Assembly: GCA_000002445.1 (NCBI GenBank)
Contig: CM000208.1
Coordinates: 3,744,001 to 3,808,000, forward strand
Direction: 5' to 3'
Source of the DNA: Trypanosoma brucei
Taxonomy: Eukaryota
Length of the DNA: 64,000 nt
Positions 6,068 to 37,661 of this stretch are shown one piece after another. The notes under the pieces were generated by a model that saw nothing but the letters and a program-made list of their open reading frames with translations, did not search any database and was not told where the DNA came from. The number at the start of each line of letters is the position of its first letter. The stretch's first letter is position 1. The position numbers and the translations under genes were made by a program.

Positions 6068-7768
6068 GTGTGTGAGATGAATGGAAGGTATGCTCGGCAG
6101 TCGGGGTGTTTTCGTGGTAAACGTCCACGTGAAATCACAACGCAGAAGCTTTTCAACCGTGCCATCGAGCATTTTCAGTCGATTTATAATGACTCTGTGG
6201 AACGCCACGAACGCGAGACCTTCGCTTCCCGTGCAGTATTTGAAAAGCAATGTGGTGTGGACCGCGAGCACTTTAACAGGGCGCATGGAAGTTTGGCGAA
6301 ACATGGCAAGGGGAAAGACTTCGCACTCGTTTTAGAGCAGTTTGAAAACGAGGAAGCGAAATTGCAGAGGGAGCACGAAGAAGAACTTCAGCGGGTGTAT
6401 CCCCTTGCCTTTTTGGAGCTTGACACAGCCGCTGTCCTTTCCCTGACACTGATTCCTAGGCTAAAGAGCAAACTCGACTTACTGGAGAGGCAGCTCACTC
6501 AGCGGCGCAAATTCACCAATCAACATCAAGGCGATGCCGCGGCGAGAGGAAGTCACTCTCGAGATGTTGACCCTCCTGTGGACGCAAAGGAGTCGGACGA
6601 CAAAAACGGTGCGGATGGCGTCCCGTCTGAACTGAATGATGCGAAGACTGGAATCGAAGAGGATGATGTCGGAACCTTGTGTGTTGGAAGAGGCGCGTAC
6701 ATTACGGGTGATGAGCCCAGTGAAGTGGAAGAGTCAGATTCTAGCGCGTTGGTTCAGGTTTTAGATACTAGCGTTGAAGATGGGAAGGTAGGCACTGGTA
6801 CTGGAGGGGGGTTTCGTAATCATGTGCACCGATTGGTCTCAAGAGGATTGGGTAACATTTTGTCCATCCCAACAGACGTCATGCGAGCTGGCGCTGCCGA
6901 TTTTGCCCGTATTGGCTTACTCCTCAACACTGAGAGCCGCAGGCAACGGCGCGATGAAAGGAGGAAATTTCTTCGCAGCCACATGGAAGTTTGTGGTCCC
7001 GAGGGGAAGACCATCGGGAAATGGGAGCTGAAGCGCCTCCTCCAGGAAGGAAAAGAAGATAAATTGAAGCAGGAAGAAATTTTTGCAGCGCTGGAGGCGG
7101 CGAAAACTATGCCGGAATTTACCGGAAGTGATATGAATGCCAATATAGTTGAAAGCATGGAGAACGATGGGGCTCCACGTAAAACTGCTGGTGCTTCAAC
7201 TGCATCACGCGAAACAGGGGACACAACCGCGTCGGAAACGGTTGTAAAGCGCCATACCAAAATCGTCCTTCGGGGAAACGGTTCACGACGGGACGATGGT
7301 GTTCCATTTACCAGAAAGGACTTTGAATGGACTAGTCTGGGCCTTGACGACGAGAGTATAGGTGAGGGCTCTCGTATGGAGAAGTTGGCGGAGTCGTACA
7401 TGTGGCCGAAGCGAACTGAGGACCGTATTCCTCACATTTTGTGTGGTGAGGTCATACCCACGTATTTTCGTGTGAGGCAGTATCAATTAGACACTTCTTC
7501 ACCCACCACCGCGACCGTGCAAATGAGTGCCACCGGAGAGGATGGCTGTCCCTCTACTCTGTTGGATGATCTCGCAGAGGCGACCCAACTTGATCCAGTG
7601 CGAGAAGGGATGTCTAATGGAGAGAAAGGAGTAGTTACAAAAAAGTCCCCGTTAGTGTTTCGAATTCCGTTTCGCGCGAAAAGTGTTTGGCTGAAGGTAG
7701 ACACCTTGGGAGACTTTATTGCCAGCCAGGTGAAGTTCTTCGGGGCCGTAACTTCTCGTGAAATATAG
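6068..7768 (+). CDS. Hypothetical protein (566 aa), acidic with coiled-coil segments
   Basis: 1.7-kb ORF co-oriented with its neighbours. Polypyrimidine tract at 5811-5840 upstream. An alternative Met lies at 6081 in another frame, so the start is uncertain. Confidence 0.5.
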   Translation: MCEMNGRYARQSGCFRGKRPREITTQKLFNRAIEHFQSIYNDSVERHERETFASRAVFEKQCGVDREHFNRAHGSLAKHGKGKDFALVLEQFENEEAKLQREHEEELQRVYPLAFLELDTAAVLSLTLIPRLKSKLDLLERQLTQRRKFTNQHQGDAAARGSHSRDVDPPVDAKESDDKNGADGVPSELNDAKTGIEEDDVGTLCVGRGAYITGDEPSEVEESDSSALVQVLDTSVEDGKVGTGTGGGFRNHVHRLVSRGLGNILSIPTDVMRAGAADFARIGLLLNTESRRQRRDERRKFLRSHMEVCGPEGKTIGKWELKRLLQEGKEDKLKQEEIFAALEAAKTMPEFTGSDMNANIVESMENDGAPRKTAGASTASRETGDTTASETVVKRHTKIVLRGNGSRRDDGVPFTRKDFEWTSLGLDDESIGEGSRMEKLAESYMWPKRTEDRIPHILCGEVIPTYFRVRQYQLDTSSPTTATVQMSATGEDGCPSTLLDDLAEATQLDPVREGMSNGEKGVVTKKSPLVFRIPFRAKSVWLKVDTLGDFIASQVKFFGAVTSREI

Positions 7769-8379
7769 ATTTTTGATCCCCATAGGTATTTGTTATACTT
7801 TCTACTCCCTCCTCCCTTTCCAGTGCATTCCTTGCTTGTTCCTGGACTCATTTCGTCTTTGAGCCTTTGTCTCATATCGTGTAATACATTTTGAAGTAAC
7901 TTCCACCGCGTGAAAGAGGTGAGGAGGATATGGGGCGCAGCAAACAGGAGGGGAAAGGGGGGAATGACAGCAGTAAAAGTGTCTTGATATACAAATTTGC
8001 ATAGATGCCCCTCCCATTGTGTGGAGCGGTGCGGCATACACGCACAAGTAGTCACGGATCATCCTGATTACTGGAGTTCTTGCACCACAGGCACTTAATG
8101 TGATCTCTCCCCTCTACTTCCTCCCTGCGCAACTCCCACTGTAAGCATCTTCTAGGAAAGAACAAAAAGTAGATAGGGGCACTTTTCTGACTTTCTTTGG
8201 AAATCTTGTTTTAGCTGTGGTAGTTCCCCTGTGGTCCTTGTGTCGTCTGTCTACTACCGGTAATATTTTTACGATTTTAGGTCTATTTTTGGCTCTCCAT
8301 TGCGGGTTGTGGGGGCTTAAAGCGAGGTCAACAAACCTTTAGATAAGTAGACAAGGGAGCGATAATTACCACAATAGAC

Positions 8380-8772
8380 ATGGCGGGCACCACCGCTATA
8401 GTAAAGGACTCGGCAATGTCTCGAGAATTGCAGCAAGACTGCATTGACTGTGCCGCGCATGCACTACACGTCATGGGGCTGAATGAGCAGACCGCGATGG
8501 CACAGTTCATCACGCGCGAACTCAATAGCAAATACGGATCACGTTTCCACTGTGTTGTAGGACGCTCCTTCGGTTCATATGTTGGTCATGACAGCCAGTA
8601 CTTCATCTACTTCCTGATCGGTGATTGTGCGTTTCTGATCTGGCGCACCGTAGATACCTTCGAAGAGCGTGTGTTTTATGCAGCGGTGGACGACATAGCC
8701 GTCGGAAACAAATATTATAGTTGCGAAAAAAACACCTGTGTTGATGAGAAGCTGGGACAAACGTCAATGTAA
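8380..8772 (+). CDS. Dynein light chain LC8 (DYNLL family) with an unusual C-terminal extension of about 40 aa
   Basis: The translation aligns along the whole LC8 fold. [24 protein letters not shown] matches [63 protein letters not shown] matches [41 protein letters not shown]. The ORF then continues for about 42 more residues to the stop at 8772. Confidence 0.85.
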   Translation: [130 protein letters not shown]

Positions 8773-9040: not shown

Positions 9041-9658
9041 TTGAATTCTTCTATCAATCAAACGACTATGTATGGTGTTGAGTGTTTTCGGCCACTTGGC
9101 CTCGCCGCCTTTATGTTGGCAGTCCTTTCGGTCGTGCGGGTCGCAACATCAGAAGATGACCCAAACAAACTGACGCCGCAGGAGCGCATAGATAGATACC
9201 GCAAACGAGTTGCGCGGTCGTTCCTCCTTAAGATGGCTGAAGAACCCGGTGCCATGACGCTCCCCTCAGGCGTCGTTGTTCACGTGCTCAACCGCGGCGG
9301 TGGTGGACGGTCGGCTGCTGTTGATGATGAATGCACCGTTCACTACACAGGAACACTGAAGGATGGAACTGTGTTTGACAGCTCACGAGATCGCGGACAG
9401 CCCTTCAAACTTAAGCTGGGCCAAGTGATTGTTGGTTGGCAGGAGGTCCTCCAACTGATGCGACCCGGCGACCGCTGGAAAGTTTTCATCCCACCTGAAC
9501 ACGGCTACGGTGCGAGAGGTGCAGGCCCAAAGATCCCACCCCACTCCGCACTGGTGTTTGACATGGAGTTGATTTCCATTGAAGGCGGCGGCAACGGTCG
9601 CACTGAAAAGGAGGTGGAGGAAGTTCTCAAGGGTTACGCGGGGAAGGGAGACTTGTAA
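9041..9658 (+). CDS. MIP: Secreted FKBP-type peptidyl-prolyl cis-trans isomerase, macrophage infectivity potentiator (MIP)-like
   Basis: N-terminal hydrophobic signal-like segment (LGLAAFMLAVLSVVRVATS) followed by a canonical FKBP domain: VHYTGTLKDGTVFDSSRDRGQPFKLKLGQVIVGWQEVLQLMRPGDRWKVFIPPEHGYGARGAGPKIPPHSALVFDMELISI. Confidence 0.85.
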   Translation: MNSSINQTTMYGVECFRPLGLAAFMLAVLSVVRVATSEDDPNKLTPQERIDRYRKRVARSFLLKMAEEPGAMTLPSGVVVHVLNRGGGGRSAAVDDECTVHYTGTLKDGTVFDSSRDRGQPFKLKLGQVIVGWQEVLQLMRPGDRWKVFIPPEHGYGARGAGPKIPPHSALVFDMELISIEGGGNGRTEKEVEEVLKGYAGKGDL

Positions 9659-10170
9659 TTGGTTGATTATTGAGAGGAAGGGGGAAGGTAAAAGAATTTG
9701 CCGTGTATGATACTGTGCGAGGGTGCATAAACGCGCTTGCTGGTAGTGTTCACCGGGGGATCAGAGTTGTTAGGGAGTTAATGTGTGTTAATAGTGTTTG
9801 TTCCCGTTGGAAGAATTTTCACATATGTATGGGGGAAAGGGAGCAAAATCAAGGCGGCACCGCCCGGGAGGCATCATCTCTACTGCTGTTTTTTGCATAT
9901 CTATTGTGTTTGCCACCCTCCTACTCCTGTAAAGTAGGGGGTTGTATTCTACCGATGTTAAAGCAGAGACAACGACAGAAAATGGCAAGGGCAATAACAA
10001 CCAAAACAACCGTGATCATCCAAGTTGCAGGTACCAATAATGGAGACGATACCAAGTGCCTATCTTATCTCTTGTCACCAAATGAAAAAGTTTCTAAGGA
10101 GAGAAAAAAGCGCGTCATACTCTTTACGAATCATTCCATCACTTTTTTGTTTGTGCGCTTACTTTCAGCA

Positions 10171-10201
10171 TCCTTCCCCTCTCACTGCTTTTTTTTTTTT
10201 T
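10171..10201 (+). promoter_or_regulatory. Polypyrimidine tract, candidate splice-acceptor signal for the FKBP-like gene
   Basis: tccttcccctctcactgc(t)13 lies 32 nt upstream of the ATG at 10233. AG dinucleotides lie between the tract and the ATG. Confidence 0.5.
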
Positions 10202-10232
10202 GGACGGGTTGTTTGTAAGGGTGTAGGTTGCA

Positions 10233-11234
10233 ATGAACAATGGCGATAATTCCTCCGTAGGAAGCATCAGCGCTCCACCGCGGCAGAGACACAAGTTTGG
10301 CACCCGCACAGCTGAAGGTATCGCAGCACCCGTAGCGGCGGGGGGGATAATAACACGTGGAGGGAATTTTCAGAAGCCAACTCCCTCAAGTGACGACTCC
10401 GCGGCCTCAACAGAAGATTTATCTCTGCTCTTGTGGTGTAGCGTCGGGGTTTTCTTGTTGCTGTACGTGATCAGTGGGCGGTTTCACAACCTCTATATAA
10501 CTCCGGAGGATAATGATAAGGCGGAACAAAATTTCCTCCAATATTTGTCTGAGCGTTGGTCTCGCGAAGGTGATGCAATCATCACAAAGGCGTCAAATGA
10601 TGCCAGTTTTACGCAGCACGGTGATGGACGTATTTATTTCCGCGTAATGAATCAAACCTTTCCTATTAAGGAGTCCACGCCGCCACGCGTTGTGTCAAAA
10701 GTATCTCTTCCGGAAGTAAGCAGTGACAACCGGTGGCGCGGTGATTTGAAAAATGCCACAAGTGAGGCAGCCATGGAGTGGCGTAACCTGACTCAGACGA
10801 TGCAATGCGCTGGAATCGATGGGCCACTCATTTTTCACCTTGTCGCGTTTCTTTCGAGTGGCGTGCGCTTTGTGAGTACATATGTTCCACCAGGGAAGCC
10901 TGAGATACGGTCAGTGGGAGCCCACATTCCATGTCTGAATGCCATTCTGCCATTGATGTGCAAAGGTGACAAATGGGAAATTATCTGCCCTCCTGAGATG
11001 GCATTCGGATCCCACGGATTTCAGGAGGTGCCCCCATCTGCGACAACAATCTGGCAGGTTTTCATGTTGGATGTGACTAAAAGCGGGCCACGCACGCGGG
11101 CACACGTGCAAAAGCTCCTCGCGGCAGCGACACGACGTCATTCCGGCGAGGCGCCGATTACTCGAAGGGAATTGTACGAAAGGGCAATGCGAGCCCGTGG
11201 GAAACTGTTGGGTAACGGTGAAGGCACACTGTAA
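10233..11234 (+). CDS. FKBP-like protein with a predicted transmembrane segment and a divergent, probably non-catalytic FKBP domain. It is a tandem paralog of the upstream MIP gene
   Basis: Its C-terminal region aligns to the neighbouring FKBP domain: GDKWEIICPPEMAFGSHGF matches GDRWKVFIPPEHGYGARGA, and PPSATTIWQVFMLDV matches PPHSALVFDMELISI. There is a hydrophobic stretch LSLLLWCSVGVFLLLYVISG near residue 70. Poly-T tract at 10171-10201 immediately upstream. Confidence 0.6.
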   Translation: MNNGDNSSVGSISAPPRQRHKFGTRTAEGIAAPVAAGGIITRGGNFQKPTPSSDDSAASTEDLSLLLWCSVGVFLLLYVISGRFHNLYITPEDNDKAEQNFLQYLSERWSREGDAIITKASNDASFTQHGDGRIYFRVMNQTFPIKESTPPRVVSKVSLPEVSSDNRWRGDLKNATSEAAMEWRNLTQTMQCAGIDGPLIFHLVAFLSSGVRFVSTYVPPGKPEIRSVGAHIPCLNAILPLMCKGDKWEIICPPEMAFGSHGFQEVPPSATTIWQVFMLDVTKSGPRTRAHVQKLLAAATRRHSGEAPITRRELYERAMRARGKLLGNGEGTL

Positions 11235-15780: not shown

Positions 15781-16401
15781 AGTTTGAGTGGTTTGTTGAT
15801 TGGGGGGGGGTTGGGAAGGAAGGTGGGATGGAAGAAAAGAGAAGTTGAGAAGCTGAAAAGATGGTAAAACACCAAAATGGCGCTTCGGAGGCCCTCACTG
15901 TCGAGTGGTTGTTTTTTTTTTGTCTTTTGTTTGGGGGGGCGGGAGGGTTTTCCTCTCCCCTTTTCTTGTCTCTCTTGCATAAACGTGGAGACACGGATTT
16001 TTTTTTTAAAAAAAGAGAGAAAACGGAAAAGAAATGTGGGTGCACTCAATATAGAAAAGGAAGTGAGAGTACATATGAAGCCAACTTTTGTACGTATGCT
16101 TACGGAGACATAAGGAATGTATATAATTTCATTACCTTGCGTCGTCTTTGTTGCCATACGCTATCTTTACGTGTGTGTTTGTGTGTGTGTGGGGGGGGGG
16201 GAAATGTGAGGAGTTTTTCTTTATTTTCTTTCTATTTCTTTTTATTTTTCTTTCTTTGCTTCATAGGGTTTTTTTTTCTTGCGGTTCGAGCACAATCTGT
16301 GGTTTTACCTCTGTTGTTGCTCCCATCCCTTTGTACCCCCTTCTTGCATTTCTTCTGTTTTTTTTTGTGTGTGTGTTTGAGTGTGAATGTGTTTGTTAGT
16401 G

Positions 16402-16403
<2 letters not shown>

Positions 16404-16439
<36 letters not shown>

Positions 16440-16458
16440 TTATTATTATTATTATTTT
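16404..16458. repeat. Compound microsatellite (TA)16(TTA)7
   Basis: Direct reading. Confidence 0.95.
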
Positions 16459-17258
16459 CTTCTCCCCTCCCCCCTTTTCCACTTTTGTCTATCCCTAATC
16501 TTTATTATTACTATTATTGTTGTTGTTGTTACTGTTATTGTTAATGTTACAGGTGTGGCTTTTCCCCACTGCTCTTTTGTTTTGTCTTCAGTTGGGGCAG
16601 ATGGTCGATTTTCAGTCATTAGTTTTGCTTCTATCGTTTCTTCTTCAATGATCAAGAAGATCTTTTTTTCTTAACAAAAAGAAAAGGAAAAAAAGAAAAG
16701 AAAACAAGAAACTACAGATCTTGTCCACTCGAATTGTGTGACAAGGGCCAATCTGTATTTTTTTTTTTTCATGTGAGTGACTCACTCGTTTGACCGTTTT
16801 CTTGTGTTGTTCAATTTTGTCGTTTTGTTCAGGGGTTATCAAATTATCTCCATCGTGCATTCACTTGAATCACACGGATAGCTTCTGAAACAATATAAAG
16901 CCGAAACGAAATTTTCTCTTCCCTCCATTTTGCTTTTTCCTCGCAGCCAATCACGCAATTTATTTACTTTTTTGCACTGCGCTTTCTTTCTTTCTTTTTT
17001 TCTTACTTTTTGCTCCCTCCCTTTTTTCTTCTCCTCTTGTAGTGGTCGCGCTTCATTGTTGTTGTTTTTTTTTTTGTGTGTGTGTGTGTTTTTTCTCATT
17101 TTCGCTTTCAGTAAGTTCATTTTCCTCCCCCCCCTTCCCTCCTTCAGTAACACACCACTACACACTCACCCATTCATGATTACCATTCTTAATTATTGTG
17201 GTTGCCATCATTGCTGTTGTTGGTGAGTTTTATTCCTTTTCATGTGCGTGGAGGAGCC

Positions 17259-17280
17259 GTGTGTGTGTGTGTGTGTGTGT
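17259..17280. repeat. (TG)11 microsatellite
   Basis: Direct reading. Another (TG)n-like run lies at about 17389-17401. Confidence 0.9.
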
Positions 17281-18036
17281 AGCAGTTTCAAATGAGTCAC
17301 AAAATAAAATACTTTTTTTTAAAAAAAAGTAAAGGTACCAAATGAAAGTGCCGTTTATGAGGGGGAGGGGAAACAAGAAGGAAGAAGAGGTGTGTGTGTG
17401 TGGGGGGGGAGAAAGTTTGTTATTATTTAATTCTACCATTTCTTTTTGGTGCTTTTCCTTATGTTCCCTGTTTTGTTTTATCACTGACCCATCTTGCGTT
17501 TCATCAACAACACACTTTACGTGTACGAACAAACCCCCACCATACACCCCAAAAAACAAAAGGGGAACCAATCCAGATGTATACATGTTGAAGGAAGAAC
17601 ACCATACACTCATACACATATATAAAATATATAAATGAATATAAGTATATTATTTTTTTTTAATTTTTCTTTGAAATATGTTTTGTCTACCCAAGTACTC
17701 GTTACAAAAATGTAGACTCCCTTTCACTGTTCTCCTCAACATTTTTTTTCGACAGTTGTTATCAATATTCGGCTTCATTTGTATCTTCTCTTTCTGTGCA
17801 CTTGTACATACGCATCTCCGTTTACATCTTACTTTCCTTCTCCTTTCCTTCGCTTCAGGAAAAAGGCTGTGGAACAAGTGAAGTAAAGAGGAGGAGGAGG
17901 AGGAGAAAACCTTCAACGGAATACGAACTTTATTCTGTTTTGTTTTTCATTTATTCCGTTTCCTTTTTTTTTTCTTTAAACGAAAAGTAACAGGAGGGAG
18001 GGAAGGAGGGGAAACGCATCGTGAGTACCAAACCAA

Positions 18037-30452: not shown

Positions 30453-33400
30453 GTGGCGGTAATGCTTTTCCTGGAACCTGAAGTTGATTATTTCAGGATG
30501 CAGCTGCATCATCTGGCGATTCCTACCAGCATATGCATACCCAGCGTCCCAAAAACCTCCCGCAATCCCGAAACAAGAGCAAATGGTGATCAAGAATGTG
30601 AAACTGGGGGCGAAAACGCCAAGGTGGACGGCACAGTCCCGTTTATCACACAGGAAGAACAAAACAAAGTTATACAACGTGCTCTCCGAGTGGCGCTCTA
30701 CCAGCGTTTTCCGTACGAAAGCTATGACACGCTAGAGAATGTGTATATTTTAGCTGTCACACATTTGGCTTTGCCGCTAATTGGTGACACGGGTTTGAGT
30801 TACGAGGACCTGGCAACTCTTGAAATTTGCGAGCATTCCCTTCCACCAGAGTTGAGGCATCGGACGTTCCCTTCACATCTTAACGCATTGATCGCACAAA
30901 GGAATCCCCCCGACAGTGGAAGTGTTATACAAGACAGAATGTTAGATCATAGCGCGACACAGGGCTCCTCGGAAGAGGGCACAGGGAAACAGCGCTTTAA
31001 CGACAGCTATTTTATTCTTATTCCTGATCTCACAGACGAGCAGGCGATGGTTTATTGTAAAGGAAGGCAGTATGCGGGCTCAATGCTGGGCAGTGGCAAG
31101 GCATCCGTTGGACCTGCGTCCGACGCTGCCCGTTTTTCCCGCAGCACCCTATGGGATGATGCACGGCATTCTCGTGCGAACGCCTTGGAAGGGCCCAGTG
31201 AAGATCTACTTTCCTTTCATGTGGTGGAGGGAGATATGATTCACTACGTGGAGACATCTCAGGGAGGTTTGAGCGAGCCAGCGCCACGTTCCTTGAGATT
31301 TGCCGCTTTCAAGGTGGCACTGAGTCAGTTTTCGTTTGAAGAACAGCAGTACTATACAAAGAAACGAGAGGAGGTACGCTCTCATGGTAGCACAACGACG
31401 CTCTGGGGATCGACACTACACTCCTCAGAGGCAAACGAAGTCCACATCAACAAAACAGTGCGGACCATTTTAGCTTCGGAAGTACCGGGGAGATGGCGTG
31501 CTGAAGAAGAGGAGGCAATGAAGAAGTTTTTTACCAAGTGTAACTCTGTTCTCAGGGCTTACTCAACCCCTTCCAGCCAGATGGATGATGCATCAAAGGG
31601 AGACGGCGGGGTGCTAGCCCCGAAACAGCCGGGGGCATCTGTCTCAGATGAACATAAAACAAGAAATGTGGCGGAATCTTTGGGGCAGACCGAAAGACTC
31701 TCTCATCTGTATGGGGTCCGCAGATTAGTTTATTCTTTCGCCGCGTGTGACTGTTACCATCTTGTTGCAGAGGATAACAACCCGCTTTACTACGCCAAGT
31801 CCAGCCGTGCTACATACAAGCCTCATACGGTAAATGTTACGCTGATCTCCGACCTAACTGTTTCGCCTCGGTTAACGCCCGCCTTCTCGGCATCGCCCCA
31901 ACGGTGCTTAGGAGCTCGAATCGGCACAACAAAGACTGTGGAAGGGCTCGTAGTATCGAACCAGCCTTCCCGTGCACAATCACCGGACATCAAACCATGC
32001 ACAGTGGGAGAGAAGTTTTCTGTAGGTTCCAAACGTCACAGCCAGTCCCCAGGAGTGTCTCCTCCGACGAGTGGCGCTCATGGAAGCGACTCGCATGCGC
32101 CGCTCCAGCGCTTACCGTCCAATACGGAGGGTTACCTCCGCCTTACAACTTCACTTGTGTGTAACAATGTCTCCGGTAACCTCAAACACAGGAAAGAGAA
32201 TCTACTGGAGAAGGGGCTTTCCTTCGGTCGGTTGAATCCGTGCCATGAGCAGGCCACGGAGGGCAATGTGAAATGTAGTAACGAGAAGGCTGTGTGTGCC
32301 GGCGATGTCGTCAACCTTTTTCGTTTACTAGCTACCTCATCCATTGCACAGCACCAACTCCGCCATAATGTTATACGTCCAGTTATTTCTGCTGCAGTTT
32401 TGGACAGTAGCGGCAATGCCGGAACCCGCGGAGCGCTGCACCGACATTATCAGCGGATAAAATGTCGTGCCTTATTGGATCACACATGGTACTCAATCCC
32501 TATCCAACCGGTTCCTTCGACGCAGGATGAGGTTCAGTGGATACCTATTGTGTTTGGGAGTGCAGAATGTATTAGTGATGTGGGTTATCGCACTGCAGTG
32601 CACATTGGCTTCTTTCCAAATGCGGAAGTCACTGATGACAGTGTGCGCGGCAACCCGTTGAGACCAAAAGGAACCGCATTCGCAACAGATGTGTCAAAGC
32701 AGTCTGCATCCCCGGGAACTGCCACGAGAAGTGCCATGATGCCGTTGGACACCAATCACGCGACGCTGCAAACAAGCTCTTCTGACGGAAGTAAGGGGTT
32801 ATGTTTCTCCGCACAACTGAAAACTGCAGTATCATCAAGCAACGAGGAAGTACCAGCTGGCGTGTCAGCAAGAAGGGGTGGTGTTGCCATGTCCTTCAAC
32901 ACAGGCAACGAGGAAGTACCAGCTGGCGTGTCAGCAAGAAGGGGTGGTGTTGCCATGTCCTTCAACAAAGGCAACGAGGAAGTGCCAGCTGGCGTGTCAG
33001 CAAGAAGAGGTGGTGTTGCCATGTCCTTCAACAAAGGCAACGAGGAAGTACCAGCTGGCGTGTCAGCAAGAAGGGGTGGTGTTGCCATGTCCTTCAACAA
33101 AGGCAACGAGGAAGTACCAGCTGGCGTGTCAGCAAGAAGGGGTGGTGTTGCCATGTCCTTCAACACAGGCAACGAGGAAGTACCAGCTGGCGTGTCAGCA
33201 AGAAGGGGTGGTGTTGCCATGTCCTTCAACACAGGCAACGAGGAAGTACCAGCTGGCGTGTCAGCAAGAAGGGGTGGTGTTGCCATGTCCTTCAACACAG
33301 GCAACGAGGAAGTACCAGCTGGCGTGTCAGCAAGAAGGGGTGGTGTTGCCATGTCCTTCAACACAGGCAACGAGGAAGTACCAGCTGGCGTGTCAGCAAG

Positions 33401-36400
33401 AAGGGGTGGTGTTGCCATGTCCTTCAACACAGGCAACGAGGAAGTACCAGCTGGCGTGTCAGCAAGAAGGGGTGGTGTTGCCATGTCCTTCAACACAGGC
33501 AACGAGGAAGTACCAGCTGGCGTGTCAGCAAGAAGGGGTGGTGTTGCCATGTCCTTCAACACAGGCAACGAGGAAGTACCAGCTGGCGTGTCAGCAAGAA
33601 GAGGTGGTGTTGCCATGTCCTTTGACACCGGCAATCTGACGGGGGTCGGAAGTGGGAATGTTGCTTGCTCTTCAGAACGAGAGATTGTCTTAAGGAGGAG
33701 TGCCATGGAAGGCGGTAGTGGTTGGGAGCAGCGTTGTTCGTCGGCGCTTTTCTCGCCAAGACCATATCGACCGACTTCTTTAAGAGTTTGGGAGCCGGGC
33801 GCTGACGATCAATCTAACTCCAATCGTTTTGAGCAAGGCACACGTGTGACATGTGCCGGGCCCCCGGCTGGCTTCTCTGCCACGTCAACTCCCTGGTGGC
33901 GATTGCCATCTCAAGGACCCAGGCGCGGGGATGGCGTTAACGCGGGGAGAGGTGAGTGTAGTACTGGTGGATTCTGTAACGATTGGCAACAATGTGACAC
34001 TTGTGGGGGCCGGTTTCCTCAGGGTAGTACTTCTAACCCGAGGTTTTGTGAGCACCTACAGTCACGACCAACAAGCGTGCTTAATACTTATGGAAAATTT
34101 TCCAGAAGTCACAGCCCCCATCCCTCCTACAACGCGATGCAACAGCGACAGACACAACATTACTCTACGATGGGCCGTGATGGACGTTTGCGGCCGCCAC
34201 ACACAGACCGCTGGGACAGCAATGATGTCAATGGTGACGTCTCGCCCAGGACCGCCACCGATCCGCTGAGAGGAACATTTTGGAAGTCGCCGACGCTCAA
34301 CCCTTCCAACCATCGAAACGGGGCAGATCCACTTCTTTCACCGTTATCGAGTCCGTCGTGCAGTGGCGTACTCACACCAAATGCAGGTCGGAGGCCGACG
34401 ATAGGTGAGTTCGCTGCAACCAACACCAGGTCCAGCGCATTCAATTGTCTAGCATCGTTCAAACATCACGGCGCCGCAACGGAAACTGGTAACCGCACGG
34501 CTAGTGGTCTCGAAAATAACTACCATGGACCTTCCTTTTGTAAGAACAGGGCAGGTGTGCCGACTAAACGGTCCGTCGTCCCCACCTTTGGCAGAATGGA
34601 TACTTTGTACGATAACAGTGCATCCGGCATACCCATTTATAACGAGTACGGCTACCCGCAAGGCGATTCTCGGGTGCGACCGAGGGGTATGCAGGTAATG
34701 GATATGATGTACGACCGCCAGTGGCAGCGGACGCAACCCCCGGCTCGCCTGCCGGTTGGTGCAGGACCCACTAATCGAGGTTCGCTAAGTACTTCATGGA
34801 CTAATACAACAAAAAATGGTGTTTGCGGCATGAGAAGGGCATGTTTGCCCGGAAAGCCACCACTCGCATCCACAAGACCAAACGGAGCTTCGAACACACT
34901 GAACAACGGCATTGCCCCCACGGCAGTTCGGCGCTTAACACTCCGCGAGCGAATACAACTCCAGCGGAGGCTTCAGCAACGAGAAGCAAACATAAGTGCC
35001 TTTGAGACGAATATAAAGGAAAACTATTGTGTGGGAAATGATGTAAAACGGTTTCGGACGGACGTTGGTGACCTTAGTTCCGCGAATAAAACAACTGCCA
35101 GCAATGGGGGGGAGAGAACGACAACGGAAACGAACTCGGCATGTGGTGCACGTACGGCTGCAGCATTGGCAGCAGTGACATTTGGGGGCGACCCTCCATC
35201 AAAAGGTTCCCTTCACTCCATTGGAAAGGATATTATGCGCTTGAAATCCCTTACGTCCCCATTCGCGGAGGCAGACGGGGTTAATGTGTCCTTTTGCCTA
35301 AGGGATTTAACCAATGCTTTTCTACGTATGCCTCAAAGTGAAATAAAGGAGTATGACCTCTCTAAAGCTGCGTGGTTGGAGGATGGGGTCTCGTGTTTCG
35401 TGTCCGCCAAGCCTACAAAATTTAATGGTGAGTTTGAAAACTATGTTAGGCACTTCAACTTTCACCAGCATCCGTTTTATTTGAGGGAAAGGGCCTTTTT
35501 ATTTGTTCTGCGAGTCCCCACTCAGCCGCAACTCCGTCTCATTATCGCCGTTCACAACATGCATGATTTTCTCTCAGTACTACGACAGCGGCCACTGCGA
35601 CCGCTAGAATCTTGGAGAGGACCGCATTCAATGGAAGAAGAAATGGGTGGTCTCAGTGGAAGGGAAAATGCCTCGCAACTTCCAGCTGATGAATGTAATT
35701 CAGGTCGGACCCGCACTTTCCTGCAGCGGCTGTGTAAATTCATGAAGAATTGTATTTCGGGGGGAAATGGCGGCGGCACCCAGCAAATGGGGTGGGCACC
35801 CATAACGTGGGGTCAGCGACTGGCTCTTCTGCGGATACAAGCGTCGGCGGCAGTACACGGCCAGGCATGGAGCGAATGCACAACTCCGTTACTCACAGAC
35901 CCGGTTGTACTCTACTCACGCATGTCATTTCTGTCGAACCGCACCGCCTCGTTCGCAGTGCTGCGCTGTCAGCTGGACACCCTCAAAGCGTTTGCCTCCA
36001 CTTGGATAAAGAGTAAAAGAACAACGGCGGACGAAAACCAGGTGCGGATGATACAAAACCGTATCAGTAAGGTAGAAAGTATACAATTGGGATGTGATGC
36101 CCCTACTGCTGGAATTGGTGAGCCCAAAACTTCTTCAAGCGGGGTACAGGCAGCTGGTCGTGTTCAGCAGCGGTTGAGATCTCTACCCCTCCGTAAAAGA
36201 ATGGGGGCTCCTTTCGCGTGGAAAAAGGCTGATACAACTTCGAATTCCGTGGAAAAAAAAGGAGAGACGCAGAGGCAGCCTCAGTTGAAATCAACGATTT
36301 CTTCGTATTCTTCATCAGCAAGTTTGTGCCGCTCTAAACCAGAAGTGGGAGGTGCTAATTCCTCAACGCCACCTGGTGGCGTTCCAGCCTCTGATGCCGC

Positions 36401-37661
36401 AGGAGCTGCAACTCCACTTGCGGACGCTGACGGCACTCTGATTCGGATTGCAGAGAGACTCACGTCATCCACCGATATAGTGAGCGGAAACAATCATTTC
36501 CCCCCAATGCGAACCATTTTGAAGCTAGTAACATTGTGGGAGCAAAATGCTCAGCGACAGAGGGCATTTAATGACTGTCCTGCAGAGCCCGCGCCTTACT
36601 CCTACGGAGGATCAGATACGGTGCTGGCTAGCAACCTCGGAGCCCGCGCAGAGTTGCGGGACCACCAGGACGATTATGATATTAGCGTCTCCCACATTCA
36701 GCAACTGCTGCAGTGGCAGTGGGAATACCACCAGAACAGCTATGAGGCATTGTCTTTACCTGTATTCCGTGGAGCGCTTGTGGCAAGCAGGGGCTGCCGC
36801 TATGGGAGCGATGCATGCAGTAGTGTGGATCCCAAGGTAATGGGTGTGAATCCCCTTTCCCGGTCACTGTTGCTCGCTCTGGTTAAGTGGGGGTGGCTAG
36901 TACCGATAGACTACAAAGCGTTGCACAAACGGGCCGTGCGTCACACTGCCGTCGGCGACAACATGCTATCACGCGTTCAATTTGGCTTCGGCGTGAGGCG
37001 TCGCACACTATTTGTGGGGGTGCTGGGGTTCACATGTTACCGCGGATGGGCCCTGAGTCTTCTTATTTTGTATGCTGCGTATCGCTGCTTCAAGTTGGCT
37101 GCAGTTGGTCTACTCAGTACCGGCGCACCGTGGCCCGCGCCTTTGCACTCGGGAACTTCTATCGTGTACAGTCGCTCGGAGGCAGCAGTGGAGGCTATGC
37201 TCGAAGAGCGGCAACACTTTCTCTCGCAGTTGCTTGCCACTCGCGTACTGCAAACTCAGCACTACGTTCACAACTTTGCAAGTCGTCTGGACATGCTTCT
37301 GCGGGGATACTCACCGATCCTTTCACTTATCATTGGTATCGAACTACTGTTTGTGTGGATTTTTTTTGCGTGTTGGAGCGGCGCCGCACGCGTTTCCGCT
37401 ACCTTCGGGGTCAATATAGACCTCCTCCATCAATATATGTCGGAGCTCATCTCTCCCTTACCGCTGTACGACAACGTCATGTGGTGCCTTACCTACATGA
37501 AGCCAAATGTGGCAGGCGTGGAGACCTTTTCTCTCGTTGCCCCTCTGTTTGTCGTCCTTTGTTTGATGACCCAGTCACCACTGCGATGGGTGCTGTACAA
37601 AACATGGGAAATGTTTTTGCATGATGACGCGCTCGTCCGACGTCCGGTGCTCTCTTTCTGA
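30453..37661 (+). CDS. Very large hypothetical protein (2402 aa) with about 14 tandem 19-aa repeats (GNEEVPAGVSARRGGVAMSFNT) and a C-terminal multi-pass hydrophobic region
   Basis: 7.2-kb uninterrupted ORF with an internal 57-bp tandem array at 32841-33633. C-terminal predicted TM helices include ILSLIIGIELLFVWIFFACW and FSLVAPLFVVLCLMTQ. Long polypyrimidine tract upstream at 30066-30178. Confidence 0.65.
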   Translation: MAVMLFLEPEVDYFRMQLHHLAIPTSICIPSVPKTSRNPETRANGDQECETGGENAKVDGTVPFITQEEQNKVIQRALRVALYQRFPYESYDTLENVYILAVTHLALPLIGDTGLSYEDLATLEICEHSLPPELRHRTFPSHLNALIAQRNPPDSGSVIQDRMLDHSATQGSSEEGTGKQRFNDSYFILIPDLTDEQAMVYCKGRQYAGSMLGSGKASVGPASDAARFSRSTLWDDARHSRANALEGPSEDLLSFHVVEGDMIHYVETSQGGLSEPAPRSLRFAAFKVALSQFSFEEQQYYTKKREEVRSHGSTTTLWGSTLHSSEANEVHINKTVRTILASEVPGRWRAEEEEAMKKFFTKCNSVLRAYSTPSSQMDDASKGDGGVLAPKQPGASVSDEHKTRNVAESLGQTERLSHLYGVRRLVYSFAACDCYHLVAEDNNPLYYAKSSRATYKPHTVNVTLISDLTVSPRLTPAFSASPQRCLGARIGTTKTVEGLVVSNQPSRAQSPDIKPCTVGEKFSVGSKRHSQSPGVSPPTSGAHGSDSHAPLQRLPSNTEGYLRLTTSLVCNNVSGNLKHRKENLLEKGLSFGRLNPCHEQATEGNVKCSNEKAVCAGDVVNLFRLLATSSIAQHQLRHNVIRPVISAAVLDSSGNAGTRGALHRHYQRIKCRALLDHTWYSIPIQPVPSTQDEVQWIPIVFGSAECISDVGYRTAVHIGFFPNAEVTDDSVRGNPLRPKGTAFATDVSKQSASPGTATRSAMMPLDTNHATLQTSSSDGSKGLCFSAQLKTAVSSSNEEVPAGVSARRGGVAMSFNTGNEEVPAGVSARRGGVAMSFNKGNEEVPAGVSARRGGVAMSFNKGNEEVPAGVSARRGGVAMSFNKGNEEVPAGVSARRGGVAMSFNTGNEEVPAGVSARRGGVAMSFNTGNEEVPAGVSARRGGVAMSFNTGNEEVPAGVSARRGGVAMSFNTGNEEVPAGVSARRGGVAMSFNTGNEEVPAGVSARRGGVAMSFNTGNEEVPAGVSARRGGVAMSFNTGNEEVPAGVSARRGGVAMSFDTGNLTGVGSGNVACSSEREIVLRRSAMEGGSGWEQRCSSALFSPRPYRPTSLRVWEPGADDQSNSNRFEQGTRVTCAGPPAGFSATSTPWWRLPSQGPRRGDGVNAGRGECSTGGFCNDWQQCDTCGGRFPQGSTSNPRFCEHLQSRPTSVLNTYGKFSRSHSPHPSYNAMQQRQTQHYSTMGRDGRLRPPHTDRWDSNDVNGDVSPRTATDPLRGTFWKSPTLNPSNHRNGADPLLSPLSSPSCSGVLTPNAGRRPTIGEFAATNTRSSAFNCLASFKHHGAATETGNRTASGLENNYHGPSFCKNRAGVPTKRSVVPTFGRMDTLYDNSASGIPIYNEYGYPQGDSRVRPRGMQVMDMMYDRQWQRTQPPARLPVGAGPTNRGSLSTSWTNTTKNGVCGMRRACLPGKPPLASTRPNGASNTLNNGIAPTAVRRLTLRERIQLQRRLQQREANISAFETNIKENYCVGNDVKRFRTDVGDLSSANKTTASNGGERTTTETNSACGARTAAALAAVTFGGDPPSKGSLHSIGKDIMRLKSLTSPFAEADGVNVSFCLRDLTNAFLRMPQSEIKEYDLSKAAWLEDGVSCFVSAKPTKFNGEFENYVRHFNFHQHPFYLRERAFLFVLRVPTQPQLRLIIAVHNMHDFLSVLRQRPLRPLESWRGPHSMEEEMGGLSGRENASQLPADECNSGRTRTFLQRLCKFMKNCISGGNGGGTQQMGWAPITWGQRLALLRIQASAAVHGQAWSECTTPLLTDPVVLYSRMSFLSNRTASFAVLRCQLDTLKAFASTWIKSKRTTADENQVRMIQNRISKVESIQLGCDAPTAGIGEPKTSSSGVQAAGRVQQRLRSLPLRKRMGAPFAWKKADTTSNSVEKKGETQRQPQLKSTISSYSSSASLCRSKPEVGGANSSTPPGGVPASDAAGAATPLADADGTLIRIAERLTSSTDIVSGNNHFPPMRTILKLVTLWEQNAQRQRAFNDCPAEPAPYSYGGSDTVLASNLGARAELRDHQDDYDISVSHIQQLLQWQWEYHQNSYEALSLPVFRGALVASRGCRYGSDACSSVDPKVMGVNPLSRSLLLALVKWGWLVPIDYKALHKRAVRHTAVGDNMLSRVQFGFGVRRRTLFVGVLGFTCYRGWALSLLILYAAYRCFKLAAVGLLSTGAPWPAPLHSGTSIVYSRSEAAVEAMLEERQHFLSQLLATRVLQTQHYVHNFASRLDMLLRGYSPILSLIIGIELLFVWIFFACWSGAARVSATFGVNIDLLHQYMSELISPLPLYDNVMWCLTYMKPNVAGVETFSLVAPLFVVLCLMTQSPLRWVLYKTWEMFLHDDALVRRPVLSF
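32841..33633 (+). repeat. 57-bp coding tandem repeat, about 14 copies, inside the 30453-37661 gene
   Basis: Exact periodicity of 57 bp. Copies 2-4 carry an aca-to-aaa (T-to-K) variant. The last copy is degenerate (FDTGNLTG). The array is open in all three sense frames and on the antisense strand. Confidence 0.95.

What the first reader, a model, noticed from the sequence alone, without database searches (positions are those of the whole stretch)
9041..11234. Tandem FKBP pair: a secreted MIP-like isomerase followed by a membrane-anchored, degenerate FKBP paralog
Gene 1 has a signal-peptide-like N-terminus and an intact FKBP domain. It resembles the macrophage infectivity potentiator family known from Trypanosoma cruzi host-cell invasion and from Legionella. 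Gene 2, 575 bp downstream, retains the C-terminal half of the FKBP fold (GDKWEIICPPEMAFGSHGF; PPSATTIWQVFMLDV) but has lost most of the conserved active-site aromatic residues. It has gained a predicted TM helix and a long N-terminal region. This looks like duplication followed by neofunctionalisation into a possible non-catalytic, membrane-bound FKBP-like protein.
Basis: partly seen in the sequence, partly recalled or inferred. Interest (0 to 1): 0.55.

Follow-up and report, generated by a model that had tools for sequence, protein, structure and literature searches.

The report
Secreted MIP plus membrane-anchored MIP-like paralog
Two neighbouring Trypanosoma brucei genes encode a normal-looking secreted prolyl isomerase (MIP) and an old, membrane-anchored copy of it whose active-site pocket has been rebuilt; both are already annotated as FKBPs, but I found no study of the second one.

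Summary
The window is T. brucei brucei TREU927 chromosome 10. Both genes are already annotated as FKBP-type isomerases (XP_828030 and XP_828031; TbgFKBP21/MIP and TbgFKBP36 in a 2024 review).

Gene 1 (9068-9658) is a MIP ortholog. It is 56% identical to T. cruzi MIP, has a signal-peptide-like N-terminus and keeps every core pocket residue.

Gene 2 differs from MIP in five ways:
- a disordered N-terminal tail;
- one transmembrane helix;
- a 40-50 residue insertion;
- four invariant cysteines;
- a remodelled pocket (Y26, D37, F46 and W59 equivalents replaced in all ten orthologs).

The tandem pair sits in the same gene order in T. vivax, T. theileri, T. cruzi and T. conorhini, so the duplication is ancient.

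My best reading is a type II membrane-tethered, probably non-catalytic MIP paralog in the secretory pathway. Activity and location are untested. Interest is modest.

The parts
9068..9658 (+). Gene 1: T. brucei MIP ortholog (196 aa, XP_828030 / Q387V4; TbgFKBP21 in T. b. gambiense)
   Evidence: Exact match in the protein collection. Pfam FKBP_C 108 bits. 56% identity over 152 aa to TcMIP 1jvw, E 2e-54.
9068..9157 (+). Gene 1 signal-peptide-like N-terminus (about residues 1-30; hydrophobic core 10-28)
   Evidence: Kyte-Doolittle peak 1.93 at residues 10-28. The alignment to the crystallised TcMIP chain starts at residue 37, matching chain residue 7. TcMIP has a 29-aa signal peptide and is secreted (review PMC11357558). 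The cleavage site itself is inferred.
9308..9574 (+). Gene 1 FKBP domain (residues 81-169) with an intact pocket
   Evidence: Pfam match. The equivalents of FKBP12 Y26, F36, D37, R42, F46, V55, I56, W59, Y82 and F99 are all identical.
9659..10232 (+). Intergenic spacer (574 nt). It holds a polypyrimidine tract at about 10164-10201 and AG dinucleotides at 10218-10219 and 10225-10226, just upstream of the gene 2 ATG.
   Evidence: Read directly from the sequence. That this is a trans-splicing signal is inferred from general trypanosome gene structure and was not tested.
10233..11234 (+). Gene 2: membrane-anchored MIP-like paralog (333 aa, XP_828031 / Q387V3; TbgFKBP36)
   Evidence: Exact match. 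Pfam FKBP_C 37.1 bits against a threshold of 21.1. Orthologs listed.
10233..10409 (+). Gene 2 N-terminal tail (residues 1-59): predicted disordered and poorly conserved
   Evidence: pLDDT below 50 for residues 1-57. 10-26% identity to orthologs.
10413..10484 (+). Gene 2 single transmembrane helix (residues 61-84)
   Evidence: The only hydropathy window above 1.6 (peak 2.32). A helix at 60-88 in the AF2 model. One such segment at the same alignment position in every ortholog; T. conorhini shows three extra windows, probably in its aberrant C-terminal tail.
10503..10598 (+). Gene 2 stalk helix (residues 91-122), equivalent to the free-standing stalk helix of TcMIP
10599..10823 (+). Gene 2 first FKBP strand region (residues 123-157) and a lineage-specific insertion with a helix (residues 158-197). 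It ends at the invariant Cys192.
   Evidence: AF2 strands at 127-157 and a helix at 177-189. Invariant D123, F126, F136, R137, P150 and C192. The insertion is much longer in the three distant homologs.
10824..11075 (+). Gene 2 FKBP core (residues 198-281) with a remodelled pocket, the invariant motif MC-x-GDKWE-xx-C-P and Cys234, Cys243 and Cys252
   Evidence: Pfam match to residues 201-278. Pocket table. This is the best conserved region of the family: 43-60% identity within Trypanosoma and 42-46% to the distant homologs.
11076..11231 (+). Gene 2 C-terminal helices (residues 289-299 and 311-327). The first carries the G-P-R-T...V..LL motif shared with trypanosome MIPs.
   Evidence: AF2 model. 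Alignments to gene 1 and to T. conorhini and T. cruzi MIP. The phmmer alignment to TcMIP runs through this helix.

Best explanation
The two genes are an ancient tandem duplicate of a MIP-type FKBP gene.

Gene 1 is the conserved copy. It is a signal-peptide-bearing, pocket-intact prolyl isomerase, orthologous to the secreted T. cruzi MIP.

Gene 2 is the diverged copy. I propose the following for it:
- The ancestral signal peptide became an uncleaved signal anchor behind a new cytosolic tail of about 60 residues.
- This gives a type II membrane protein whose MIP-like stalk helix holds an FKBP-like domain in the lumen of the secretory pathway or on the cell surface.
- That domain is stabilised by disulfides formed from four invariant cysteines.
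- It has lost the residues needed for canonical FKBP catalysis and FK506 binding, but keeps a conserved hydrophobic pocket.
- It therefore most likely acts as a membrane-tethered binding or chaperone module (a pseudo-isomerase) for secretory or surface proteins, not as an enzyme.

Shown here: homology, architecture, pocket substitutions, conservation and synteny. Inferred: topology, disulfides, loss of activity and the chaperone or binding role.
For: Identity and annotation: exact matches to T. brucei TREU927 proteins.

FKBP membership: Pfam FKBP_C in both genes and in 10 of 10 gene 2 orthologs.

MIP ancestry of gene 2:
- The first 18 Foldseek hits are all Mip/FkpA-type.
- Gene 2 and the MIPs share a 2-residue deletion in the 50s loop, a Trp at the FKBP12 A72 position and the C-terminal G-x-R-T..V..L helix. 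FKBP12 and FKBP2 lack the deletion and the Trp, and their chains end before the helix. A similar GPRS stretch does follow the FKBP14 domain, so the helix motif is not exclusive to MIPs.
- The best single-domain profile hits in the PDB are LpMip 39.2, FkpA 36.5 and TcMIP 36.3 bits.

Ancient tandem arrangement: the order dynein light chain, MIP, gene 2 ortholog is found in T. conorhini, T. vivax, T. theileri and T. cruzi. A FYVE gene follows in three of them; in T. theileri the downstream gene has no recorded domain.

Pocket: Y26 to L/A/V/I/S/R, D37 to V/M/T/F (E or D only in the three distant homologs), F46 to E/S/D/L/V, V55 to H and others, W59 to L/M/F. F36, Y82 (F/Y) and F99 (W) are mostly kept. 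No ortholog is intact.

Selection: the FKBP core is the most conserved part of the family, and there are 21 invariant columns including GDKWE.

Lumenal or extracellular orientation:
- Four Cys are invariant in 10 of 10 orthologs.
- Cys243 aligns with the Cys in the MC-x-GE-K motif of ER-resident FKBP2 and FKBP14.
- In 8 of 10 orthologs the N-terminal TM flank is more positive than the C-terminal flank.
- N-glycosylation sequons occur after the TM in 9 of 10.
- MAFFT places the gene 1 signal peptide over the TM of the gene 2 family.
Against: - No experiment bears on activity, location or topology.
- In T. brucei itself the TM flank charges point weakly the other way: N flank -3, C flank -1.
- The model was built from only 10 sequences (mean pLDDT 74). 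Its coordinates could not be inspected, so the cysteine pairing is not verified.
- Three pocket aromatics and I56 are retained and the W59 position stays hydrophobic, so residual or altered isomerase activity cannot be excluded.
- The sequence margin of Mip-type over ER-type FKBPs in profile scores is only 2-5 bits.
Confidence: 0.55

Rival explanations
1. Gene 2 is still an active, membrane-anchored prolyl isomerase with a divergent pocket and altered substrate preference, as its database name (peptidylprolyl isomerase) implies.
For: Pfam FKBP_C is above threshold. F36, I56, Y82 (F/Y) and F99 (W) are retained, and the W59 position stays hydrophobic. The domain is the most conserved part of the protein.
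Against: The equivalents of Y26, D37, F46 and V55 are replaced in every Trypanosoma ortholog, and none of the ten has the canonical set. Other FKBPs with mutated pockets lack activity, for example PvFKBP25 as summarised in review PMC11357558.
Confidence: 0.2
2. Gene 2 did not arise from the neighbouring MIP gene. It descends from an ER-lumenal FKBP2/FKBP14-type gene and lies next to MIP by coincidence or by later rearrangement.
For: It shares the MC-x-G-[ED]-K cysteine with FKBP2 and FKBP14. A GPR[ST] stretch follows the domain in FKBP14, as it does in gene 2. Profile scores for FKBP2 (34.5) and FKBP14 (34.1) are close to those of the Mip-type hits.
Confidence: 0.12
3. The topology is inverted or the target is another organelle. 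The FKBP-like domain faces the cytosol, the cysteines are not disulfide-bonded, and the protein works as a cytosolic scaffold on a membrane, in the manner of FKBP38 or AtFKBP42.
For: TM flank charges in T. brucei and in homolog P0024 slightly favour N-out. Membrane-anchored cytosolic FKBPs with weak or no activity exist; FKBP38 and AtFKBP42 appear among the structural hits.
Against: Eight of ten orthologs favour N-in. Four invariant cysteines, one at the ER-FKBP position, fit an oxidising compartment better. The parent protein, MIP, is a secretory protein. Moving a 60-130 residue N-terminal tail across the membrane is less likely than signal-anchor insertion; this last point is an inference.
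Confidence: 0.13

Closest known systems
Trypanosoma cruzi MIP (TcMIP / TcFKBP22; PDB 1JVW, 8BK4)
   Same: Gene 1 is its ortholog: 56% identity, a signal peptide, stalk helix, FKBP domain and C-terminal helix, with an intact pocket. The ectodomain model of gene 2 superimposes on 160 of its 163 residues. Gene 2 also shares its 50s-loop deletion, the GD[RK]W motif and the C-terminal G-x-RT helix.
   Different: T. brucei does not invade host cells (general knowledge), so the 'infectivity' role of TcMIP cannot simply be transferred to gene 1. Gene 2 has a TM anchor instead of a cleaved signal peptide, a 40-50 residue insertion, four extra cysteines, a second C-terminal helix and a remodelled pocket.
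Legionella pneumophila Mip and E. coli FkpA (Mip-type FKBPs)
   Same: A long stalk helix carries a C-terminal FKBP domain on the extracytoplasmic side. Both are top structural and profile hits for gene 2. Holding the domain at a membrane is functionally similar.
   Different: The bacterial proteins dimerise through an N-terminal domain that is absent here, and they are active isomerases. Gene 2 would be tethered by its own TM helix and lacks key catalytic residues.
ER-resident FKBPs: FKBP2/FKBP13, FKBP14/FKBP22 and the translocon-bound membrane protein FKBP11
Non-catalytic FKBP domains: FKBP38, FKBP6, AIP, the FK2 domain of FKBP51/52, PvFKBP25, AtFKBP42
   Different: They are cytosolic or nuclear and of different FKBP lineages. 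None has the MIP architecture or an N-terminal signal anchor.

Membership tests
FKBP superfamily (Pfam PF00254 FKBP_C) | Profile match above the curated gathering score | tested here: met
   Gene 1 scores 108.1 bits and gene 2 scores 37.1 bits against a cut-off of 21.1. All 10 members of the gene 2 family match, best E 1.6e-10.
FKBP superfamily (Pfam PF00254 FKBP_C) | FKBP fold: a five-stranded sheet wrapped around a short helix | tested here: met
Catalytically competent, FK506-binding FKBP | Canonical pocket residues (FKBP12 Y26, F36, D37, R42, F46, V55, I56, W59, Y82, F99) | tested here: met
   Gene 1: all ten are identical in the alignment.
Catalytically competent, FKBP (gene 2) | Canonical pocket residues (FKBP12 Y26, F36, D37, R42, F46, V55, I56, W59, Y82, F99) | tested here: not met
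   Gene 2 has L, F, V, P, E, H, I, L, F and W at these positions. Only F36 and I56 are identical, and Y82 and F99 stay aromatic. None of the 10 orthologs is intact.
Catalytically competent FKBP | Measured prolyl isomerase activity and inhibition by FK506 or rapamycin | not testable with these tools
   This needs recombinant protein and the chymotrypsin-coupled assay. No published assay was found for either T. brucei protein.
MIP-type FKBP (TcMIP, LpMip, FkpA class) | A stalk helix directly N-terminal to the FKBP domain | tested here: met
   Gene 1 aligns to TcMIP over residues 37-188, including the stalk. The gene 2 model has a helix at 91-122 and aligns to 160 of 163 residues of TcMIP.
MIP-type FKBP (TcMIP, LpMip, FkpA class) | Sequence signatures seen here in MIPs: a 2-residue shorter 50s loop and G-D-[RK]-W after the helix | tested here: met
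   Both features are present in gene 1, in T. conorhini and T. cruzi MIP and in the gene 2 family. Both are absent from FKBP12 and FKBP2. Calling them MIP-specific rests on the few sequences compared.
MIP-type FKBP (TcMIP, LpMip, FkpA class) | Export to the extracytoplasmic side (signal peptide) and secretion | tested here: inconclusive
   Gene 1 has a hydrophobic N-terminus where TcMIP has its 29-aa signal peptide. Gene 2 has a single internal TM with mostly N-in charge bias. No signal-peptide predictor or experiment was available.
MIP-type FKBP (TcMIP, LpMip, FkpA class) | A role in host-cell infection | not testable with these tools
   This needs parasite genetics. T. brucei is extracellular (general knowledge), so this defining phenotype may not apply.

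The most novel reading that the evidence does not exclude
The gene 2 family would be a MIP-derived pseudo-isomerase found across Trypanosoma and in at least three unnamed trypanosomatid-like organisms. The signal peptide became a signal anchor, so a disulfide-locked FKBP-like domain with a rebuilt pocket is displayed on a stalk at the lumenal or surface face of a membrane. There it would serve as a dedicated receptor or holdase for a parasite-specific client, such as surface-coat or flagellar-pocket proteins, or as a membrane docking partner for secreted MIP.
Probability: 0.3. Interest if true: 0.55.

Novelty: new variant of a known kind. Interest (0 to 1): 0.35.

Why it matters
MIP proteins are being pursued as drug targets in T. 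cruzi, Legionella and Burkholderia. Every Trypanosoma species examined carries a second, membrane-tethered MIP-like protein whose pocket lacks the residues that bind FK506 in FKBP12. Pocket-directed MIP inhibitors are therefore unlikely to bind the paralog, and genetic studies of MIP should allow for it.

More generally, it is a clean example of a secreted enzyme converted into a probable membrane-bound pseudo-enzyme by turning a signal peptide into a signal anchor. The gain is incremental: FKBP pseudo-enzymes and membrane-anchored FKBPs are known, and both genes are already annotated.

Tried and rejected
- The word-indexed homolog searches were nearly useless. Three searches returned only P0001, P0002, P0028 and the query itself. 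The exhaustive representative search found the orthologs instead.
- The organisms behind the three distant homologs (SRA runs SRR22803263, SRR24540844, SRR23478486) could not be identified. Their contigs are about 2 kb, show no spliced-leader match and have no informative neighbours. Whether Leishmania has an ortholog is therefore unresolved. The review lists no FKBP of this size for L. major or L. donovani.
- The AFDB Foldseek library, which would have given names and species, was not available.
- Literature searches by accession, old and new gene IDs and proposed names found no functional study of either gene. The TcMIP structure paper PMC1083928 is not held.
- I suspected that T. vivax had lost MIP, because no gene is called between the dynein light chain gene and the gene 2 ortholog. 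An intact 193-aa MIP ORF is in fact there.
- I suspected a duplicated FYVE gene, because two ORFs are each 704 aa. They are unrelated.
- My first estimate of about 70% identity to TcMIP was wrong. The counted value is 56%.
- My first mapping of F99 to residue 273 was off by one. It is W274.
- An RGD tripeptide at residues 169-171 of gene 2 occurs in only 3 of 7 Trypanosoma orthologs. I treat it as chance.
Full report
**What is there**

Exact-sequence look-ups show that the window is Trypanosoma brucei brucei TREU927 chromosome 10. Four consecutive products match GenBank entries EAN78917 to EAN78920. The FYVE neighbour carries the old ID Tb10.61.0730.

- Gene 1 runs from ATG 9068 to the stop at 9658 and encodes 196 aa.
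- Gene 2 runs from 10233 to 11234 and encodes 333 aa. The spacer between the genes is 574 nt. It ends in a long polypyrimidine tract followed by AG dinucleotides 7-14 nt upstream of the ATG.
[quoted passage not shown] The T. equiperdum copy of gene 1 is named 'macrophage infectivity potentiator, precursor'.
[quoted passage not shown] It gives no functional data for either.
- Seven literature searches by accession, gene ID or name found no study of either gene.

**Check of the observation**

Pfam FKBP_C matches both proteins above its gathering score of 21.1 bits. Gene 1 scores 108.1 bits. Gene 2 scores 37.1 bits (E 4.1e-9) over profile positions 13-93 of 94. The two proteins align to each other with E 4e-11, 27% identity over 108 residues. 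Hydropathy gives gene 1 an N-terminal hydrophobic core (residues 10-28) and gives gene 2 a single TM-grade segment (residues 61-84).

**Gene 1**

Gene 1 is 56% identical over 152 residues to the crystallised T. cruzi MIP, E 2e-54. The alignment begins about 30 residues into the T. brucei protein. That is where TcMIP loses its 29-residue signal peptide.

All ten core pocket residues of FKBP12 are identical in gene 1: Y26, F36, D37, R42, F46, V55, I56, W59, Y82 and F99. It is therefore predicted to be an exported, active isomerase. T. brucei is extracellular (general knowledge), so the 'infectivity' function of TcMIP cannot simply be carried over.

**Gene 2 anatomy**

The exhaustive HMMER search found five full-length relatives with E from 7e-85 to 2e-46. 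Exact look-up identifies them as T. congolense, T. vivax, T. cruzi, T. grayi and T. theileri proteins. T. conorhini came from the first homolog search.

Three more distant homologs (E 1e-19 to 5e-16) have the same layout. They come from unnamed SRA assemblies.

An AlphaFold2 model built on the 10-sequence alignment has mean pLDDT 74, and most of residues 100-300 has block-mean pLDDT above 80. It shows these elements:
- a disordered tail (residues 1-58);
- a TM helix (60-88);
- a long helix (91-122);
- strands (127-157);
- an inserted helix (177-189);
- the FKBP core (198-281);
- two C-terminal helices (289-299 and 311-327).

Gene 2 therefore keeps the entire MIP architecture.

**Origin**

Three sequence features join the gene 2 family to MIPs:
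- a two-residue deletion in the 50s loop;
- a Trp in the G-D-[KR]-W motif, at the FKBP12 A72 position;
- a helix after the domain that begins G-x-R-T and continues ..V..LL.

FKBP12 and FKBP2 lack the deletion and the Trp, and their chains end before the helix. A similar GPRS stretch follows the FKBP14 domain, so the third feature is not exclusive to MIPs.

The best single-domain profile hits in the PDB are also Mip-type: LpMip 39.2, FkpA 36.5 and TcMIP 36.3 bits. The margin over ER-type FKBP2 (34.5) and FKBP14 (34.1) is small.

The order dynein light chain, MIP, gene 2 ortholog is conserved in four further species. A FYVE gene follows in three of them; in T. theileri the downstream gene has no recorded domain.
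- T. conorhini.
- T. theileri and T. cruzi.
- T. vivax, where the MIP ORF is intact but was not called as a gene.

Consecutive accession numbers suggest the same order in T. congolense, T. b. gambiense and T. equiperdum.

The duplication therefore predates the divergence of these Trypanosoma species. If the three unnamed homologs are non-Trypanosoma trypanosomatids, it is older still. Gene 2 has diverged faster than gene 1. Gene 2 is 31-48% identical to its orthologs, whereas gene 1 is 50-61% identical to its own.

**Pocket**

Mapped onto FKBP12, the T. brucei protein reads:

| FKBP12 residue | Gene 2 residue |
|---|---|
| Y26 | L |
| F36 | F |
| D37 | V |
| R42 | P |
| F46 | E |
| V55 | H |
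| I56 | I |
| W59 | L |
| Y82 | F |
| H87 | F |
| F99 | W |

Across the ten orthologs:
- the Y26 position is never aromatic;
- the D37 position is V/M/T/F in all Trypanosoma species, and E or D only in the three distant homologs;
- the F46 position is mostly acidic;
- the W59 position is L/M/F.

No ortholog has the canonical set, so this is not an alignment artefact.

The domain is nevertheless the best conserved part of the protein: 43-60% identity within Trypanosoma and 42-46% to the distant homologs. The tail is only 10-26% identical. There are 21 invariant columns, including M-C-x-G-D-K-W-E-x-x-C-x-P. That pattern fits a retained but changed function, not decay.

**Topology and compartment (inferred)**

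- Four cysteines (192, 234, 243, 252) are invariant in all ten proteins.
- Gene 1 has no counterpart to any of the four.
- Cys243 aligns with the Cys in the MC-x-GE-K motif of the ER proteins FKBP2 and FKBP14. From memory, that Cys forms the FKBP13 disulfide with a Cys in the loop before the second strand. Cys192 lies in the corresponding loop.
- In eight of ten orthologs the N-terminal TM flank is more positive than the C-terminal flank. T. brucei itself is one of the two exceptions.
- Sequons follow the TM in nine of ten.
- MAFFT lays the gene 1 signal peptide over the TM of the gene 2 family.

The most economical history is that the MIP signal peptide became an uncleaved signal anchor behind a new cytosolic tail. 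The result is a type II protein that displays a stalked, disulfide-stabilised FKBP-like domain in the secretory lumen or at the cell surface.

**Mechanism proposed**

I propose a membrane-tethered MIP-like binding or chaperone module that has given up canonical catalysis. Confidence is about 0.55.

The rivals are:
- an active isomerase with a divergent pocket (0.20);
- descent from an ER FKBP2/14-type gene rather than from MIP (0.12);
- a domain that faces the cytosol (0.13).

A PPIase assay, topology mapping and a densely sampled phylogeny would separate them.

**Verdict**

It concerns two genes that are already annotated. Inactive FKBP domains and membrane-anchored FKBPs are both familiar. 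New here are the recognition of a conserved MIP-architecture pseudo-isomerase with a signal anchor, an insertion and four invariant cysteines, and the age of the tandem pair. Interest is modest, at 0.35.

Noticed in passing
Not in the window; protein P0180 (T. cruzi CAA87758.1 / UniProt Q26910): A 91-aa T. cruzi entry named 'cystatin' falls in the same 90% identity cluster as the T. cruzi ortholog of gene 2. It is almost identical to that ortholog's N-terminal tail and TM helix and has no cystatin-like part. It looks like an old mis-annotation of a partial clone.
   Followed up: partly
L005:5005-5586 (T. vivax GCA_021307395.1, SOPI01000403.1): No gene is called between the dynein light chain gene and the gene 2 ortholog. 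An intact 193-aa MIP ORF, 61% identical to T. brucei gene 1, lies there, so the T. vivax annotation misses its MIP gene.
   Followed up: yes
L001:10001-11062 (T. conorhini protein P0002): The last 45 or so residues of the T. conorhini gene model (FRRHYDFFSFYVYEYMCGFSL...) do not align with any ortholog and look like translated UTR. The model probably reads through a frameshift or a missed stop.
   Followed up: no
window 39512-49870 (+): A giant 3452-aa ORF holds 25.8 copies of a 210-nt unit (99% identical, 39770-45179) and 21.9 copies of a 72-nt unit (45651-47224). The same stretch shows negative GC skew over about 38-46 kb and a strongly positive AT skew up to about 50 kb.
   Followed up: no
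window 32839-33634 (+), inside the 2402-aa ORF 30453-37661: There are twelve copies of a 66-nt (22-aa) tandem repeat at 98% identity. Spurious overlapping ORFs appear on both strands across it.
   Followed up: no
window 16001-18000: A low-GC intergenic stretch (GC 0.357, AT skew -0.25) lies between the FYVE gene and the next 704-aa ORF. The rest of the window is about 0.44-0.54 GC. The two 704-aa ORFs on either side are unrelated despite their equal length.
   Followed up: partly
window 6068-8772 (+) and loci L001, L006, L007: Upstream of the FKBP pair, a CAP-Gly protein, a 550-600 aa protein and a dynein light chain (LC8-type, Pfam 96 bits) are neighbours in T. conorhini, T. theileri and T. 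cruzi. The middle protein has a sub-threshold Dynactin match in T. brucei (21.6 bits against a cut-off of 25.6). This may be a small cluster of dynein/dynactin-related genes.
   Followed up: no
window 8380-8772 (+): The T. brucei dynein light chain ORF is 130 aa, against 112 aa in T. cruzi and T. conorhini. A 203-aa T. congolense model is in the same cluster. The C-terminal extension is unexplained.
   Followed up: no
window 10737-10745 (gene 2 residues 169-171): An RGD tripeptide follows the nearly invariant Trp168 in the insertion. It is present in T. brucei, T. cruzi and T. conorhini. It reads LGD, RED or RSE in the other Trypanosoma orthologs, so it is probably not a conserved adhesion motif.
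   Followed up: partly
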